DNA from: a virus
Lineage: Duplodnaviria; Caudoviricetes
Direction: 5' to 3' (one strand)
IMG/VR virus record: IMGVR_UViG_3300028549_001457
Span: 160,001 to 224,000 of that record
Length of the DNA: 64,000 nucleotides
Positions within the stretch are counted from its first letter, which is position 1; every line of letters begins with the position of its first letter. The position numbers and the translations under genes are program-made. Of this stretch, positions 12,893 through 45,657 are shown in pieces. Under the pieces are notes generated by a model. That model saw only the letters and a program-made list of their open reading frames with translations. It had not been told where the DNA came from and ran no database searches.

Positions 12893-12969
12893 CGGTGTGA
12901 AAGTGAGTCTGGTCCACGGCTCGCCCCGGAAGCGAGAGATCGTCGGTTCAAATCCGACCACACCGACCA
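12893..12969 (+). tRNA. tRNA-Pro(CGG)
   Basis: ctcgc-cc cgg aa-gcgag arm; ACCA end. Confidence 0.85.
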
Positions 12970-13353: not shown

Positions 13354-13493
13354 AAGTCTTTCAGTAGCAACATTTGAGATACTTCGCCTGTAAAGCGGGA
13401 TGTCGTGAGTTCGAGTCTCACCAGGGGGCAACCTCTGTAGCTCAGTTGGATAGAGCGCCTAAACCTCTCGGATGGCCTTTCTCTGAAAGATTT
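13354..13493 (+). ncRNA. YrlA-like Y RNA 1 (permuted tRNA domain, acceptor capped by GCAA)
   Basis: outer stem gtctttcag/ctgaaagat, TAG, inner stem catttgag/ctcggatg, ATACTTC, then anticodon arm, T arm, acceptor, D arm. Confidence 0.75.
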
Positions 13494-13500
13494 CTTTTTA

Positions 13501-13652
13501 AACCTTGCAATAGCTAGACAAGCCTTACTTCGCCCGTTAAGCGCGTAAAGCGGTGGTTCGACTCCATCATCCGGCACCAGAACAACCCATGCCGGATTAG
13601 CCCAGTGGTAGAGGCACGTAAAATTCGGCTAGTCAATTTTCTTTGCAAGGTT
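13501..13652 (+). ncRNA. YrlA-like Y RNA 2 (permuted tRNA domain with internal ACCA)
   Basis: outer stem aaccttgcaa/ttgcaaggtt, TAG, gacaagcc/ggctagtc, TTACTTC; atccggc-ACCA-11 nt-gccggat. Confidence 0.75.
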
Positions 13653-13659
13653 CCAATAT

Positions 13660-13737
13660 GGAAGGTGAGCTAGTGTGGTCATTCAGCGAAGGACTGAAAA
13701 TCCTTAGAAATCGGTTCGATTCCGTTACCTTCCACCA
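13660..13737 (+). tRNA. tRNA-Phe(GAA)
   Basis: aagga-ct gaa aa-tcctt arm; ACCA end. Confidence 0.9.
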
Positions 13738-13884
13738 ATTTCCAGTAGTAAGAAGCAGGATACTTCGATTCAGCTCACGCTGAAGTTTCTTGGTTCGATT
13801 CCAAGATTCCCCGCCAAGTTTAATCTCTGGGGAATTGCCTAATGGTTAGGCGATCAAGCCCTTCTTTAAGTTTCTCTGGGAGTT
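13737..13884 (+). ncRNA. YrlA-like Y RNA 3 (permuted tRNA domain with internal GCCA)
   Basis: outer stem aatttccag/ctgggagtt, TAG, agaag..gg/cccttct, ATACTTC; attcccc-GCCA-12 nt-ggggaat. Confidence 0.75.
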
Positions 13885-13918
13885 TTATACGGTTTCTTCT
13901 TTCATAGAAGGAGCCACC

Positions 13919-14599: not shown

Positions 14600-14661
14600 A
14601 TCATGACCATTCCTGGGACGCCTAGTGGTCTGGCAGTAAGTCCGAGAGTGGGAGCCAATCT

Positions 14662-14736
14662 TTTCTCAAGTAGCTAGGAGTAGCGTTACTTCGCTTTTGG
14701 TGCAAAAAACACGCGATCCACTTTTCTCTTGAGAAA
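14662..14736 (+). ncRNA. minimal Y-like RNA 4 (scaffold with a single short hairpin)
   Basis: tttctcaag/cttgagaaa, TAG, gga..gcg/cgc..tcc, TTACTTC, TTTTCT. Confidence 0.6.
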
Positions 14737-14786
14737 GTTTTTCTGTATCTTGTATGTCTCCCACTAAACTGGGAGTGGATTGAAAT

Positions 14787-14862: not shown

Positions 14863-14869
14863 ATTTTTA

Positions 14870-15204
14870 GGTAAACCTGGACATCGCTGGCTAACCACCA
14901 GAGGAAAGTCGGGACTCCACAGAGCAACAAGCCAGCTAACTACTGGGCAGGGCAACCTGACGGAAAGTGCAACAGAAAGCAAACCGCCGATGGCCCGAAA
15001 GGGATCAGGTAAGGGTGAAAGGGTGGAGTAAGAGCCCACCGCTGGACTGGTAACAGGACAGGCATGGTAAACCCCTTGTGGAGCAAGGCAAACAGAGGAT
15101 GATGACCCTGCTCGGGTAGTCTTCGGGTTGCTGCTAGAGGCCAACAGTGATGCTGGTCCCAGAGGAATGATGTCACACGACAGAATCCCGCTTATGGTTC
15201 ACCT
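14870..15204 (+). ncRNA. rnpB: RNase P RNA (type A-like)
   Basis: GAGGAAAGTCGGGA and ACAGAATCCCGCTTA form a compensated P4; GGAAAGTGCAACAGAAA, GGTAAACCCC and GAGCAAGGC conserved regions. Confidence 0.95.
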
Positions 15205-15286
15205 ATAATAAATTCGGGCTGGCCTCATGGAGAGGTCGGGGTAACGAGGGCATGCACTCCCTCCCCGCTCGGAAATTCAAAACAAT

Positions 15287-38029: not shown

Positions 38030-38331
38030 GCGCTCATGGCGGAATCGGTAGACGCCTTGGACTTCACGTAAGTATTACATGTAGAGCACTTAGTAGGAAA
38101 CTGCTGATGTGAATCCCATCAAATTCGGTGAATACCCCAAGTGGACAACGCCGAGCCAAGCCTGGAGACAGGAAGGTGTAGAGACTAGACGGTGGGGGCC
38201 TAAGGATACTAAATATCTATGGTCAAGGCATAGTCCAGCGCACAACAGGAAACTGGCCATAGCAATATGGAGTGTGATGAAAATCCAATGCCCGTAAGGG
38301 CGTCCCGGTTCGAGTCCGGGTGGGCGCACCA
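38030..38331 (+). tRNA. tRNA-Leu(TAA) split by a group I intron
   Basis: exons 38030-38064 and 38280-38331 rejoin as ttgga-ct taa aa-tccaa; long V arm; ACCA end. Confidence 0.9.
38065..38279 (+). mobile_element. group I self-splicing intron (215 nt, no ORF)
   Basis: P AAATTCGGTGAA, Q AACGCCGAGCCAAG, R GTAGAGACTAGACGG, S AAGGCATAGTCC; 5' exon ends in T, intron ends in G. Confidence 0.9.
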
Positions 38332-38673: not shown

Positions 38674-39216
38674 ATGGGACACTCAAAAAGATTTCAGAAC
38701 AGAAACACGGTTTTAGCTTTATCGTGTCATTTCATCCCAATGGCTGAAATTTCACGCAGAAAAGCAATCAAGGCCATCGTCACTCGTAAGGCTGACATCA
38801 TCACTAATCCTAAGACGCTGGAGACTTCTTCTTGGATTGAGCCTGGACAACCTATTAAGATGATTATCTATAAGATGGTTTCCAAGTCTCCCGGAGAGCC
38901 CCGTTTGCACTCAGGCAACAAGGGCCTAAAGGCGATTATTCGTCGTGACGGTCATAGGTGTTGCTATTGTGGGGCTAAGCTAAAGGGTACCAACTGCACC
39001 GTGGACCACATTGTCCCACGAAGTAAGGGCGGTCAAACTAACTGGAAAAACCTCGTGGCTTGTTGTTTCCGATGCAACCAGATGAAGGGCAGCAAGCTTC
39101 TGGAAGAAAGCGGTATGACCTTACTCCGTAGGCCTACCACCCCCACCATGGTTCTCATGGAGCGCTTCCATAAGTTGGTTGATTTTGATATGTTTGAAAA
39201 AACATACGCAGACTGA
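38674..39216 (+). CDS. HNH endonuclease (McrA-like); start probably 38739
   Basis: IRRDGHRCCYCG...TVDHIVPRSKGGQTNWKNLVACCFRCNQMKG. Confidence 0.9.
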   Translation: MGHSKRFQNRNTVLALSCHFIPMAEISRRKAIKAIVTRKADIITNPKTLETSSWIEPGQPIKMIIYKMVSKSPGEPRLHSGNKGLKAIIRRDGHRCCYCGAKLKGTNCTVDHIVPRSKGGQTNWKNLVACCFRCNQMKGSKLLEESGMTLLRRPTTPTMVLMERFHKLVDFDMFEKTYAD

Positions 39217-39234
39217 TTTTACGGCACATTTTTC

Positions 39235-39263
39235 TGAACCTTTTTGAAATTTGTGCCGTATCT
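39235..39263 (+). promoter_or_regulatory. ECF-like promoter TGAACC-N16-CGTATCT
   Basis: recurring motif upstream of a long noncoding tract. Confidence 0.6.
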
Positions 39264-39331
39264 TAAACTAGTCCCCTGAGGGGGCGTTGAATCCTTGAAA
39301 ATTTGGCAACATATTTAAGTAAACTAACTAT

Positions 39332-39660
39332 GGCCTGACTAGGCACTTCGGTGCCGTAGCGCTCCAGCGTTGGTCGGGCCTCCAATCAAAACCCCGTCCT
39401 AGTAGCTTCCTAGGCTGTAATTCAAACGGCCATGAGGGGCAGTAACCCTTCGTGCAGTAAAGAGTCTCCTGGAGGCATTAACCTCTAAGGTCTGAATAGA
39501 ACGCGGCTTTTAGCTGTGAATCCAGTGAGCCAAACTGGTAGAATGAGTAGTTGCGACACTCCGGGGAATCATCAAACCCAAGGGGCAGTAAGTCAAAATG
39601 GGTTACTTCGAGAGCCTTCACAAGCTCACCATATGCAAAGACACCCACTGACGATTCCCT
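39332..39660 (+). ncRNA. large unassigned structured RNA candidate
   Basis: ORF-free; ggcctgact/ggtcgggcc and ggcac-ttcg-gtgcc stems; repeated GGGGCAGTAA. Confidence 0.45.
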
Positions 39661-39844
39661 CCCCTTGGTTTTTATAACCTAATTAACTTAGGAGGCTTAT
39701 ATGCCTGACTCAACTGGTTACTGGGGCGATGACGATGACAACAAGGTTCTTGATGCCATCGATGACGAATTTGATCGCTACGAGCGAGAAAATCCTGACG
39801 AAGATTAATTAGTCTGTATTGTTTTTATATATGATGGAGCAAGC

Positions 39845-40293: not shown

Positions 40294-40669
40294 GGGGGTG
40301 CCATGGTTTTGACAGGTTGTTTATTTGAAGAGTAGTGCAGGTAGGGGTGGGCTGGCCCCTTTAATAAGCCCAAAAGCTATAACTGCCGAAGACACAATGC
40401 TTCTTCAGGCTGCGTAAGCAGCAACCTCTTAGTGAGCGTTTGGTAACTAAGTTGTATGTTCTTCAGAGGGTGGATTCGTCCTACTGATGGGGGATAACAG
40501 ACTGGACTCCGGTGACGCTTTCCTAGCCTGAGTTAAGAGCGTAGAGAGCAAGTCCTTGAATAGGGTTAGCCCAACTCCCTATAGAGGTCACGAAAAATGG
40601 GCTAAACCTGTGAATGAATTACCTTTAGAGGCTTCTTGGACATCGGTTCGATTCCGATCACCTCCACCA
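40294..40669 (+). ncRNA. ssrA: tmRNA, tag peptide (A)AEDTMLLQAA
   Basis: G3:U70 acceptor, TTGAC D-like loop, ATAACT-GCC resume site (40385-40417), T arm and ACCA. Confidence 0.95.
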
Positions 40670-43301: not shown

Positions 43302-43557
43302 ATTAGTTGTATCTGTAGCATGGGAGGCCTTATGGCTAAGGTTGATTATAGACTGGCATTGGAAAATGCTCATAAATCTCTCGCCCAGGATGAGTTTTTT
43401 AGGAGACTGAGCAAGATGGGTCCCGAGGAGCAGTCCGAGTTTCTGAAGAAATTGTCGGTTCCCGATGACGCAGTTATTGAAGTTGGAGAAGAATCCTAAT
43501 TTTTTCTTTTAATGAAATTAATTCCTGGTATCTCTCTTAGGTAAGATCCTTGACAAT

Positions 43558-43773
43558 TTGTCCAGTAGCGAGTATCCGGTTACTTCGTTAATATGACTCA
43601 GTGTTATATTTACCTTGGATGTAAGGTCCCGAAGGAACCACCTGAAGGTAGGGGGGTTAGCGTAAAAACTAACCTTGAGATACATGAGTAACTTCCCTCA
43701 TGGCATCTCTTATCGGGTGGGCATCCCACAGATGCTTAAAAAGTGAACCCCGTATACGTTAATCTCTGGACAG
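43558..43773 (+). ncRNA. Y-like RNA 5 with large multi-hairpin payload
   Basis: tgtccag/ctggaca, TAG, gtatccgg/ccgtatac, TTACTTC; about 170 nt insert. Confidence 0.65.
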
Positions 43774-43779
43774 CACTTT

Positions 43780-43837
43780 CACGGTAGCAAGTAAAGAGTT
43801 CCTTCGGCTATGAAACTCTATACAACAAACCTCCGTG
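43780..43837 (+). ncRNA. minimal Y-like RNA 6
   Basis: cacgg/ccgtg, TAG, gta..gagtt/aactc..tac, TTCCTTC variant. Confidence 0.5.
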
Positions 43838-43845
43838 TTCTTTCC

Positions 43846-44190: not shown

Positions 44191-45657
44191 ATGGCTCGTT
44201 TCGCTAAGACGGAAGTCTCTACTGTTAACACTCCTACTACTGTTAACTTGGCTGGAGGGGAAGCTTTTGCTATGTCCCCTAAGCTTGAGTTTGCTTCGGC
44301 GCTGTTGACTTGCTTCACCACGGATACTTATTACAAGTCCGGTGAGGGTCAGGTTAGTCGCATTGCCGATTTGTCCAAGACTGTTGACCCTTTGTTTGCA
44401 GCAAAGGCAGCTATCTTTACTCGTAAGAAGAATGGCCTCCGGTCTGTAAGCCACATTGTGGCCGGGGAACTCTCTCAGCGTGTGGATATCAAGGGCTTGG
44501 AGTGGACTCGTAAGTTCTACGAGCGGGTTGTCAATCGTCCTGATGACATCACCGAGACTCTTGCATATATCAAGTCCACGAGTGGTCAGAACCTCCGTAA
44601 GTTGAGCAACGCTATGAAGAAGGGTTTCGGCGCGGCTCTCGGTAAGTTTGATTCTTATCAGCTTGCCAAGTATCGTGGAGAGGGTAAGGATCTGAATCTG
44701 TATGATGCGGTCAATTTGCTGCACCCTAAGGCTACTGCTGCATTGACCGAGCTGATGACCGGGACTCTTAAGCCAGCCGAAACTTGGGAGACCAAGCTTA
44801 CTCAGGCTGGTCAGAAGGCATCTTCGGATACCGAGAAGGCCGAAATGAAGGGTCAGGCATGGCGTGAGCTTTTGACTGCTAACAAGCTGGGCTTCATGGC
44901 TTGCATCCGCAATCTTCGCAACATTGCGGAACAGGCTCCTGATGTAATGCCTTTGGCTCTGGAGTTCATTACGGACCCTCATCAGGTTAAGAAGTCCCTG
45001 ATGTTCCCCTTCCAGATTTATACTGCTACCGAAGCAATTCGTGGCACTAAGGCTGATACCCGTGAGGTTAAGCTGGCTCTGGAAAAGGCGATGGAGTTGA
45101 GCCTTGTCAATGTTCCCAAGTTTTCAGGTAAGACCCTGATTGCTGTTGATACCAGTGGATCTATGGCTGGTCGCCCCGTTCAGATTGCTGCGTTGTTTGC
45201 GGCTGTGCTGTTTAAGTCTAACGATGCAGACGTTCTGCGTTTTGCTTCGGGCGCTACCTACCTGGACCTCCACCCAGCGGATAGTCTTACCACGCTCACC
45301 GAGAAGATTCACCGCGCTTCCGGGGGTGGGACCGATTTCCACAGTATCTTCGAAACTGCTAATAAGGTCTATGACCGAATTATCATCCTTTCGGACATGC
45401 AAGCTTGGGTAACTCGTCAGGTTAGTTCTTATTGCGCTGGGACCCCTCATGCCGCACATAAGGCTTACAAGCAGAAATTTGGAGCGGATCCTCGGATCTT
45501 CTCTTTCGATCTGACGGGTCAGGGGACCCTCCAGTTCCCCGAGAGCAAGGTTTTCGCTTTGGCGGGTTTTAGTGACGCCGTTTTGAAGACCATGCAGAAC
45601 CTCGAAATGGACCCTAATGCCCTCGTGCATGAAATCGAGTCTATTAGCTTGACCTGA
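44191..45657 (+). CDS. rsr: Ro60/Rsr RNA-binding protein (TROVE plus vWA domains)
   Basis: NLAGGEAF, DPLFAAKAAIFTR...LRSVSH, YQLAKY, TWET, IRNLRN, PF; DTSGSM, GGGTDF, IILSDMQ. Confidence 0.9.
   Translation: MARFAKTEVSTVNTPTTVNLAGGEAFAMSPKLEFASALLTCFTTDTYYKSGEGQVSRIADLSKTVDPLFAAKAAIFTRKKNGLRSVSHIVAGELSQRVDIKGLEWTRKFYERVVNRPDDITETLAYIKSTSGQNLRKLSNAMKKGFGAALGKFDSYQLAKYRGEGKDLNLYDAVNLLHPKATAALTELMTGTLKPAETWETKLTQAGQKASSDTEKAEMKGQAWRELLTANKLGFMACIRNLRNIAEQAPDVMPLALEFITDPHQVKKSLMFPFQIYTATEAIRGTKADTREVKLALEKAMELSLVNVPKFSGKTLIAVDTSGSMAGRPVQIAALFAAVLFKSNDADVLRFASGATYLDLHPADSLTTLTEKIHRASGGGTDFHSIFETANKVYDRIIILSDMQAWVTRQVSSYCAGTPHAAHKAYKQKFGADPRIFSFDLTGQGTLQFPESKVFALAGFSDAVLKTMQNLEMDPNALVHEIESISLT

What the first reader, a model, noticed from the sequence alone, without database searches (positions are those of the whole stretch)
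39332..39660. About 330 nt unassigned structured RNA with repeated GCAGTAA motifs and a Y-like 3' module
ORF-free tract with its own promoter (39235), a UUCG-capped branched 5' domain, GGGGCAGTAA twice (39436, 39582) and GTGCAGTAA (39452). The last copy is followed by atgg, TTACTTC (39603), a hairpin and ccat, echoing the Y scaffold. Large ncRNAs such as GOLLD and ROOL occur in phage tRNA arrays, but I cannot match this one. It may be a new class or a multivalent Ro scaffold.
Basis: partly seen in the sequence, partly recalled or inferred. Interest (0 to 1): 0.65.

Follow-up and report, generated by a model that had tools for sequence, protein, structure and literature searches.

The report
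Composite phage RNA locus ending in Y-RNA
The ORF-free tract is real, but it looks like three structured RNA modules, not one new giant RNA: the last ~95 bases are a small "Y RNA" of the kind that partners the phage's own Ro60 protein, and the first two modules remain unexplained.

Summary
The window is part of a 279-kb uncultured jumbo phage with about 44 tRNA genes, RNase P RNA, tmRNA and a Ro60 gene. The gap 39217-39700 has no credible ORF and no Rfam family. The proposed promoter at 39235 is not supported.

The tract folds into three separately closed domains:
- D1 (39332-39384) is a three-way junction ending in UCCA+AUC, like this phage's tRNAs.
- D2 (39392-39566) is a multi-hairpin domain of unknown role.
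- D3 (39575-39671) carries the same "handle" as six other RNAs in this genome. Three of these are tRNA-mimicking YrlA-type Y RNAs, and two lie beside Ro60.

A covariance model built only from the three YrlA-type paralogues finds D3 end to end (19.4 bits, E about 0.004). That score is above those of the two Ro60-adjacent RNAs. The same model finds Ro60-adjacent RNAs in three other phages.

D3 is therefore most likely a minimal, tRNA-less Y RNA, a new member of a known kind. The other two GCAGUAA copies do not fit the handle, so "multivalent Ro scaffold" and "one 330-nt new class" are unsupported.

No orthologues could be fetched, so D1 and D2 stay open.

The parts
39220..39260 (+). Long hairpin just after the HNH stop codon (9-bp stem UACGGCACA/UGUGCCGUA). 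It is a flanking element, possibly a terminator or processing site for the upstream unit.
   Evidence: z -7.45, 0 of 200 shuffles; no promoter match
39293..39305 (+). 13-nt element CCTTGAAAATTTG. The only other copy in the 279-kb genome (CCTTGACAATTTG) lies directly upstream of the long Y-like RNA beside Ro60 (43548). It is a candidate shared promoter or 5' processing signal.
   Evidence: 2 matches in the genome, none on the other strand
39332..39384 (+). D1: three-way junction. It has a 10-bp acceptor-like stem, a GGCAC-UUCG-GUGCC hairpin and a GCGC-UCCA-GCGU hairpin, followed by U-CCA and then AUC. Nearly all of this phage's tRNA genes have the same 3' context.
   Evidence: z -3.26; tRNA trailers; pair probabilities about 1.0; ARAGORN and Rfam do not call it a tRNA
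39392..39566 (+). D2: multi-hairpin domain closed by CCCCG/CGGGG. It contains hairpins 39398-39416 (loop UAGCUUC), 39413-39431, 39432-39453 (loop CAGUAA) and 39522-39538, plus the second GCAGUAA at 39454. Its function is unknown.
   Evidence: closing helix and hairpins at probability 0.8-1.0; whole-domain z only -1.4; no handle-model or Rfam match
39575..39671 (+). D3: minimal Y-like RNA. P1 is 39578-39585 with 39661-39668. C39586 is bulged, and AG 39587-88 pairs with CU 39659-60. P2 is 39592-39603 with 39643-39652. UACUUCG lies at 39604-39610 and the body hairpin at 39612-39627. The U-rich tail runs from 39669.
   Evidence: model R1, 19.4 bits, E 0.0038, model positions 1-154; descriptor: 7 loci in the genome against 0.06-0.34 in simulations
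39436..39460 (+). Two upstream GCAGUAA copies. GGGGCAGUAA lies in the loop of hairpin 39432-39453, and GUGCAGUAAAGAGU follows directly 3' of that hairpin. They repeat the sequence of D3's handle core but do not have its fold.
   Evidence: no model hit; alternative pairing with the D3 3' strand costs +10 kcal/mol

Best explanation
The tract is a composite non-coding RNA locus of three modules on the + strand, probably made as one precursor and cut up, as is known for bacterial Y RNAs and tRNAs.

The 3' module D3 (about 39576-39673, ~95 nt) is a minimal Y RNA. Its 5' and 3' ends pair in an 8-bp stem. This is followed by a bulged pyrimidine, a 2-bp AG:CU step, a 3-nt loop, a second helix and the invariant UACUUCG. 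That is the handle carried by this phage's tRNA-mimicking YrlA-type RNAs and by the two Y-like RNAs beside its Ro60 gene. In D3 the tRNA-like body is replaced by a 33-nt stretch containing one small hairpin. By inference, D3 docks on the phage Ro60 protein, which is encoded 4.5 kb downstream on the same strand. There it would act as an alternative adaptor or gate, like YrlB and Yrn2 in bacteria.

D1 is a tRNA-like CCA minihelix. It most plausibly serves as a processing signal for RNase P and the tRNA 3'-end machinery, or as a tRNA mimic. D2 is a structured spacer or RNA of unknown function.

What is shown: the folds, the motif positions, the match to the family model, and the link between that family and Ro60 genes in other phages. 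What is inferred: transcription, processing, Ro60 binding, and any role of D1 or D2.
For: - Family: six other RNAs in this genome share one handle, at 13354-13492, 13500-13653, 13738-13886, 14660-14738, 43557-43778 and 43776-43840.
- Link to YrlA: the first of these matches Rfam YrlA locally (43.6 bits, E 2e-8).
- Descriptor search: YAG..A-N9-12-U.CUUCG, plus CU, plus a closing helix finds exactly these six and D3 in 279 kb, all on the + strand. Simulated genomes give 0.34 hits, or 0.06 with a helix of 7 bp or more.
- Covariance model R1, built from the three YrlA-type paralogues only, ranks as follows across the window on both strands: 14660 (31.5 bits), then D3 (19.4 bits, E 0.0038, aligned end to end), then the two Ro60-adjacent RNAs (15.9 and 14.3 bits). 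Noise starts at about E 0.1.
- Covariation: across the six aligned paralogues including D3, 93% of cells pair, against 66% in shuffles (0 of 500). P1 has changes on both sides in 9 of 9 pairs, and P2 in 6 of 7.
- Ro60 link in other phages: R1 finds RNAs lying beside Ro60 homologues in three other phage records. One of them shares UAG-N7-UUACUUCG.
- Ro60 gene: TROVE and vWA domains are confirmed at 44191-45654.
- Precedent: species with a YrlA also have a second Y RNA, and Y RNAs are processed from precursors that include tRNAs (PMC4201824).
- D1: it ends in UCCA+AUC like the phage's tRNAs.
Against: - D3's model score is modest and the calibration is rough.
- The bulged base is C in D3 but U in all six paralogues.
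- A plain sequence profile of the handle finds D3 only at E 4.3.
- The canonical YrlA/Ro motif GNCGAAN0-1G is absent from D3. It is also absent from this phage's own YrlA-type RNAs.
- An 8-bp GC-rich stem followed by a U run could simply be a terminator.
- The paralogue alignment used for covariation was fitted to the model.
- No orthologue of the tract could be obtained, so there is no independent conservation or covariation for D1, D2 or D3.
- There are no expression data.
- D2's fold is not better than shuffles (z -1.4).
Confidence: 0.6

Rival explanations
1. The whole ~340-370 nt is one mature RNA: a large Y-type RNA or a multivalent Ro60 scaffold. In this reading the 3' handle tethers the CCA minihelix and the D2 hairpins, with their extra CAGUAA loops, to Ro60.
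For: Three GCAGUAA copies cluster within 150 nt, and the 11-mer AGGGGCAGUAA is repeated. A unique 13-nt upstream element is shared with the Ro60-adjacent long-plus-short Y-like tandem, which suggests parallel transcription units. AGUAAAGAGU is shared between 39456 and the short Ro60-adjacent RNA. If 39290-39302 is included, a long-range helix between 39306-39317 and 39544-39554 is predicted to enclose D1 and D2.
Against: The handle model gives no match anywhere in 39332-39575 at E<=10. The upstream copies sit in a hairpin loop and a 3' tail, not in the helix-bulge-helix geometry. D3's terminal stem closes D3 alone with probability 0.75-1.0. Pairing the upstream copy with the 3' strand costs +10 kcal/mol. 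The long-range helix vanishes when the 5' boundary moves by 10 nt.
Confidence: 0.15
2. The tract is an ordinary intergenic spacer. D3's stem plus U run is an intrinsic terminator for the HNH/tRNA-Leu unit, and the motif resemblances to the Y-like RNAs are chance.
For: Whole-tract z-scores are weak. No homologue was found in any collection searched. The terminal stem is followed by UUUUU.
Against: The descriptor and the model single out D3 among 279 kb and 64 kb respectively. A 75-nt 'loop' is atypical for a terminator, and the terminator scan does not call it. The same stem-plus-U-tail arrangement ends the bona fide YrlA-type paralogues.
Confidence: 0.12
3. The tract is the 5' leader of the downstream 35-aa and 131-aa genes and acts in cis. 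For example, AGCUUCCUA (39404-39412) could mask the ribosome-binding site UAGGAGGCU (39689-39697).
For: A 9-bp complementarity is predicted when the fold is extended to 39700. A strong RBS and ATG lie at 39690-39703.
Against: Any CUUCCU is complementary to a Shine-Dalgarno sequence. That segment is already in a local hairpin. A U-run stem lies between it and the RBS. No riboswitch or leader family matches. The 131-aa protein has only one distant homologue, and its upstream DNA could not be fetched.
Confidence: 0.08

Closest known systems
Second bacterial Y RNAs that accompany YrlA/Yrn1: YrlB (S. Typhimurium, M. smegmatis) and Yrn2 (D. radiodurans); Chen et al. 2014, PMC4201824
   Same: D3 is a small RNA whose 5' and 3' ends form a long stem with an internal loop or bulge. 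It is encoded on the same strand as Ro60, a few kb away. It coexists with tRNA-mimicking Y RNAs and lies in a cluster that includes tRNAs, where polycistronic precursors are documented.
   Different: There is no detectable sequence relation. D3 uses this phage lineage's handle (Y-AG...UACUUCG) and not GNCGAAN0-1G. It lies 4.5 kb from Ro60, whereas the paper reports YrlA-type RNAs mostly within 4 kb of Ro60 and the two Salmonella RNAs within 2 kb. Binding is untested.
YrlA, Rfam RF02553 (tRNA-mimicking Y RNA)
   Same: D3 has the same order of elements in the handle: terminal stem P1, asymmetric internal loop, P2, then a YUAC element (consensus seen; D3 alignment).
   Different: D3 has no T arm, acceptor-like hairpin or D arm, and gives no RF02553 match even at E<=10.
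tRNA and tRNA-like minihelices (for D1)
   Same: D1 has a 7-10 bp acceptor-like stem, a discriminator base and an encoded CCA. Its AUC trailer is the same as that of most tRNA genes of this phage.
   Different: D1 is only 53 nt. Its two hairpins have tetraloops, and it has no anticodon, D or T loops. ARAGORN and Rfam do not call it.
EGFOA RNA, Rfam RF02955 (small RNAs of large gene-free regions that form oligomers; bioRxiv 10.64898/2026.07.01.735769)
   Same: It is the only Rfam model with any score here (39376-39488). Exact matches to the conserved single-stranded blocks CCGUCCUAGU and GUAAAG occur in the right order. It has a similar habitat, in long ORF-free regions.
   Different: The score is 13.8 bits against a cut-off of 37.7, with E = 7. 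Most of the model's helices are not formed, so this is not a member.
GOLLD, ROOL and other large ncRNAs of phage tRNA arrays
   Same: The setting is the same: a phage island of tRNA and ncRNA genes.
   Different: There is no Rfam match at any threshold tried. The tract resolves into smaller modules.

Membership tests
This phage's handle-bearing Y-like RNA family (model R1; includes the YrlA-type RNAs at 13354-13886 and the Ro60-adjacent RNAs) | Terminal helix P1 formed by the RNA's own 5' and 3' ends | tested here: met
   CCAAGGGG/CCCCUUGG, 8 bp, probability 0.75-1.0. It aligns to the model's P1. P1 covaries across paralogues in 9 of 9 pairs.
This phage's handle-bearing Y-like RNA family (model R1; includes the YrlA-type RNAs at 13354-13886 and the Ro60-adjacent RNAs) | One bulged pyrimidine, then AG paired to the CU that directly precedes the P1 3' strand, then a 3-nt loop | tested here: met
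   C39586 is bulged, AG 39587-88 pairs with CU 39659-60, and UAA follows. The dot-bracket pattern is the same as in the paralogues at 13354, 13738 and 14656. The bulge is C in D3 and U in all six others.
This phage's handle-bearing Y-like RNA family (model R1; includes the YrlA-type RNAs at 13354-13886 and the Ro60-adjacent RNAs) | Second helix P2 followed directly by the invariant UACUUCG | tested here: met
   GUCA...UGGGU pairs with ACCCA.UGAC, followed by UACUUCG at 39604-39610. The spacer is 3 nt longer than in most paralogues.
This phage's handle-bearing Y-like RNA family (model R1; includes the YrlA-type RNAs at 13354-13886 and the Ro60-adjacent RNAs) | Significant score with a model built without the candidate | tested here: met
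   19.4 bits, E 0.0038 over 64 kb on both strands with filters off; best non-family hit E 0.097. The calibration is rough.
YrlA (Rfam RF02553; Chen et al. 2014) | tRNA-like domain (T arm, acceptor-like hairpin, D arm) | tested here: not met
   No RF02553 or tRNA match in 39150-39750 at E<=10. In the R1 alignment the 94 body positions are replaced by 33 nt.
YrlA (Rfam RF02553; Chen et al. 2014) | 5' motif GNCGAAN0-1G | tested here: not met
   D3 reads GGGGCAGUAAG. The phage's own YrlA-type RNAs read CAGUAGCAA or similar at this place.
Y RNAs in general (Ro60 partners) | Encoded near a Ro60/Rsr gene on the same strand | tested here: met
   Ro60 (TROVE plus vWA) lies at 44191-45654 on the + strand, 4.5 kb downstream of D3.
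Y RNAs in general (Ro60 partners) | Physical binding to Ro60 | not testable with these tools
   Needs pull-down or gel-shift experiments.
EGFOA (RF02955) | Score at or above the gathering cut-off, with the model's helices formed | tested here: not met
   13.8 bits against 37.7; many non-canonical pairs are flagged.
tRNA (for D1) | Cloverleaf with a 7-nt anticodon loop and a T loop | tested here: not met
   Not called by ARAGORN or Rfam. Only the acceptor stem, discriminator and CCA are present.

The most novel reading that the evidence does not exclude
The whole ~340-370-nt stretch is one functional RNA of a new architecture. A Y-type handle at the 3' end would dock on phage Ro60 and present a tRNA-like CCA minihelix and a 175-nt multi-hairpin domain with extra CAGUAA loops. 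The payload could be a built-in substrate mimic, a decoy or an assembly scaffold.
Probability: 0.12. Interest if true: 0.7.

Novelty: new member of a known kind. Interest (0 to 1): 0.4.

Why it matters
Y RNAs are the obligate partners of Ro60, but what their variable bodies do is still unclear, and phage versions are barely studied. This phage appears to carry at least seven RNAs with one shared handle:
- three tRNA mimics and a short one inside the tRNA array;
- two beside Ro60;
- D3, a minimal version with almost no body.

Such a graded natural series would be a convenient system for defining what Ro60 recognises and what the body adds. D1 and D2, just upstream, are still unassigned structured RNA and may be worth a look once orthologues are available. 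As it stands the finding extends a known system rather than revealing a new one.

Tried and rejected
Searches for homologues of the tract all came back empty:
- blastn against 50,697 phage records.
- A viral-contig scan with the double GCAGTAA motif gave 88 loci. All were chance hits by blastn and nhmmer.
- nhmmer of D1, D2 and D3 against 1.8 Mb of fetched loci.
- BLAST against the two nearest GenBank relatives, Tunturiibacter phage Tunturi_5 and LR745208.1, plus two further large IMG/VR records. The best hit lies inside a protein gene.

Searches for synteny anchors:
- The neighbouring proteins (HNH, 131-aa ORF), Ro60, the terminase and the portal found no close relative in viral contigs or genome contigs.
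- The SLOG-type protein is too widespread to serve as an anchor.
- The only close relative reached is SESF01029638.1 (portal 66% identical). It gave just the portal stretch, because the record is not held for further reading.
The contigs of the 48%-identical homologue of the 131-aa ORF and of portal homologues P0003-P0008 therefore could not be read.
The last one searched genome contigs for the Y RNA stretch shared with another phage and found nothing.

Ideas considered and rejected:
- Hammerhead or another small ribozyme for D1: the core does not fit and there is no Rfam hit.
- tRNA or anticodon-loop decoys for the D2 hairpins: position 33 is A in all three 7-nt loops.
- EGFOA membership.
- A recurrent AAUCA..AAACCC linker: it is as frequent on the opposite strand.
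- A sigma-70 reading of the shared 13-nt element: there is no usable -10 at either copy.
- A small protein in the gap.

Full report
**Context.** The window is bases 160001-224000 of a 278,785-bp IMG/VR virus record, estimated 95% complete. It carries 43 tRNA genes called by ARAGORN plus one of undetermined anticodon, a tmRNA (40294-40669), RNase P RNA (14868-15209) and a group I intron (38066-38259), all on the + strand. The target lies in the gap 39217-39700. Upstream is an HNH endonuclease gene (38674-39216; Pfam HNH). Downstream are a 35-aa ORF with a strong ribosome-binding site (39701), a 131-aa ORF and the tmRNA. A Ro60 gene with TROVE and vWA domains lies at 44191-45654 on the same strand.

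**Checking the observation.**
- GCAGTAA occurs 10 times in the 64-kb window on both strands, and three of these fall within 150 nt here.
- The 11-mer AGGGGCAGTAA is repeated at 39434 and 39580.
- The gap has only short ORFs (56 aa or less), none with a family match.
- Rfam gives nothing at gathering score. With the most permissive search it gives only EGFOA at 13.8 bits against a cut-off of 37.7.
- The claimed promoter at 39235 is not found by the consensus scan. It lies within a very stable hairpin, 39220-39260 (z -7.45).
- Folding of the whole tract is only modestly better than shuffled controls: z -1.8 for 39332-39660 and -2.05 for 39303-39675. The opposite strand is no better (z -1.2).

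**Anatomy.** All folds, whatever the boundaries, give three separately closed domains.
- D1, 39332-39384, is a three-way junction. It has a 10-bp stem, a UUCG-capped 5-bp hairpin and a 4-bp hairpin (z -3.26, 0 of 200 shuffles). It is followed by U-CCA and then AUC.
  - Nearly every tRNA gene of this phage ends in an encoded NCCA followed by AU, most often AUC.
  - D1 therefore has the 3' context of a tRNA gene, but it has no anticodon, D or T loops.
- D2, 39392-39566, is closed by CCCCG/CGGGG (probability 0.92-0.98). It holds several well-predicted hairpins, one of which (39432-39453) has CAGUAA as its loop. As a whole it is not better than shuffles (z -1.4).
- D3, 39575-39671, is closed by CCAAGGGG/CCCCUUGG and followed by UUUUUAUA.

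**What D3 is.** The 3' motif UACUUCG led to a family inside this genome.
- UACUUCG is enriched in the window: 15 copies against 4.7 expected, 13 of them on the + strand.
- AGTA-N13-TACTTCG occurs four times in the genome, at 13363, 13744, 39587 and 43564.
- Reading the flanks shows six other RNAs with one shared architecture. In order, each has:
  - a terminal helix P1 made by the 5' and 3' ends;
  - one bulged pyrimidine;
  - AG paired with the CU that directly precedes the 3' strand of P1;
  - a 3-nt loop;
  - a second helix P2;
  - the invariant UACUUCG;
  - a variable body;
  - a pyrimidine-rich 3' loop;
  - a U-rich tail.
- Three of these RNAs (13354-13492, 13500-13653, 13738-13886) have a permuted tRNA-like body with a T arm, an acceptor-like hairpin and a D arm. 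The first matches Rfam YrlA locally (43.6 bits, E 2e-8).
- One RNA (14660-14738) is short. Two (43557-43778 and 43776-43840) lie just upstream of Ro60.

**Objective tests of D3's membership.**
1. Descriptor search. The descriptor is YAG..A, 9-12 nt, U.CUUCG, then within 280 nt a CU followed by the complement of the bases that precede YAG.
   - It finds exactly seven loci in the 279-kb genome on both strands: the six above and D3.
   - Genomes simulated from the dinucleotide composition give 0.34 hits on average, or 0.06 for helices of 7 bp or more. D3's helix is 8 bp.
2. Covariance model. R1 was built from the three YrlA-type paralogues alone. Their consensus structure already shows compensatory changes in P1 and P2. 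It was run with filters off over the whole window.
   - After the three training sequences it ranks 14660-14738 (31.5 bits, E 3e-6).
   - Next comes D3 at 39575-39671 (19.4 bits, E 0.0038). It is aligned from model position 1 to 154, with the tRNA-like body replaced by 33 nt.
   - The two Ro60-adjacent RNAs follow (15.9 and 14.3 bits).
   - The first unrelated hit is at E 0.097.
3. Covariation. On the six matches aligned to the model, 93% of pair cells are standard pairs, against 66% after shuffling (0 of 500) and at most 52% with slid partners.
   - All nine P1 pairs and six of seven P2 pairs change on both sides.
   - The alignment was fitted to the model, so this leans towards the structure.
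4. Link to Ro60. The family is tied to Ro60 beyond this genome.
   - Four of 44 other phage records searched encode a Ro60 homologue.
   - R1 and Rfam YrlA find RNAs beside the Ro60 gene in three of them.
   - In one, the two RNAs just upstream of Ro60 read GUGUAG-N7-UUACUUCG, so the UACUUCG element is shared across phages.
   - The full-length YrlA alignment of another shows the family's order of elements: P1, 5' loop AUGCu, P2, CUAc. The phage handle maps onto this order.

**Caveats on D3.**
- A plain sequence profile of the 5' handle finds D3 only at E 4.3. This is because D3's spacer is 3 nt longer and its bulge is C, not U.
- The canonical GNCGAAN0-1G motif of YrlA (PMC4201824) is absent from D3. 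It is also absent from this phage's own YrlA-type RNAs.
- The model's E-value calibration is rough.

For these reasons D3 is not filed under Rfam YrlA, whose defining tRNA-like domain it lacks. I file it instead as a minimal Y-like RNA of this phage's handle family.

This matches published biology. Every characterised species has a second Y RNA besides the tRNA-like one (YrlB, Yrn2). Y RNAs are also processed from polycistronic precursors that can include tRNAs (PMC4201824).

**The other two GCAGUAA copies.** They repeat the sequence of D3's handle core (GGGGCAGUAA). One sits in a hairpin loop and the other directly 3' of that hairpin. Neither has the helix-bulge-helix geometry, and R1 gives no match in 39332-39575 at E<=10. 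The upstream copy could in principle pair with D3's 3' strand, but that fold is 10 kcal/mol worse. The repeat may be a trace of a local duplication. I cannot assign it a role, and 'multivalent Ro scaffold' is not supported.

**Transcription unit.** No sigma-70-type promoter is called. However, the 13-mer CCTTGAMAATTTG occurs only twice in the genome. One copy is at 39293, 39 nt upstream of D1. The other is at 43548, immediately upstream of the long Y-like RNA beside Ro60. The two loci also share a layout: the element, then a long RNA, then a short handle RNA, then a U-rich end. The element may be a promoter for a non-sigma-70 polymerase or a processing signal. This is an inference. Whether D1, D2 and D3 are one precursor or one mature RNA cannot be decided from sequence.

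**Comparative evidence.** This is the main gap. No homologue of the tract was found in the phage collection, in 1.8 Mb of fetched loci, or in the nearest GenBank relatives, whose portals are only 35-38% identical. Closer relatives exist, with portals 52-81% identical. Only one was reachable, SESF01029638.1, and only around its portal gene. D1 and D2 therefore have no evolutionary support for or against.

**Verdict.**
- It is not supported as a single new large RNA or a multivalent scaffold.
- The best-supported reading is a composite ncRNA locus whose 3' module is a new, minimal member of the Ro60/Y RNA system in a phage that has at least seven such RNAs.
- Interest is moderate.

Noticed in passing
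window 13354-13492, 13500-13653, 13738-13886: Three tandem YrlA-type Y RNAs with a permuted tRNA-like body (T arm, acceptor-like hairpin, D arm) sit inside the tRNA array, directly after tRNA-Asp and tRNA-Phe and about 30 kb from the Ro60 gene. None reaches the Rfam gathering score. The first gets 43.6 bits locally.
   Followed up: partly
window 14660-14738: A short handle RNA with no tRNA-like body lies between tRNA-Asn and tRNA-Ala. It scores 31.5 bits (E 3e-6) with the model built from the three YrlA-type paralogues.
   Followed up: partly
window 14600-14658: A segment after tRNA-Asn has a canonical-looking D arm (GCCUAGUGGUCUGGC) and ends in GCCA+AUC. It looks like a tRNA fragment or tRNA-like piece. 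It shares the 11-mer GGCAGUAAGUC with D3, probably by chance.
   Followed up: no
window 39220-39260: A very stable hairpin (z -7.45) lies right after the HNH stop codon. It is followed by only a weak U tract, so its role as a terminator or processing site is unclear.
   Followed up: no
window 39293-39305 and 43548-43560: The element CCTTGAMAATTTG is unique to these two places in 279 kb. Both copies are upstream of a 'long RNA plus short handle RNA' pair.
   Followed up: partly
window 12893-12969: A 7-bp Watson-Crick stem is followed by A-CCA-AA right after tRNA-Glu and is not called by ARAGORN. It may be another unannotated tRNA-like gene.
   Followed up: no
window 39404-39412 and 39689-39697: AGCUUCCUA in D2 and the ribosome-binding site UAGGAGGCU of the 35-aa ORF are complementary over 9 bp. 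This may well be chance.
   Followed up: no
L177 9542-9819 (-), L178 6979-7122 (+), L180 7969-8111 (-): Other IMG/VR phages with Ro60 homologues (29-35% identical) carry YrlA-like RNAs right beside the gene. The L177 pair shares GUGUAG-N7-UUACUUCG with this phage. The other two use the canonical CCGAAUGC motif.
   Followed up: partly
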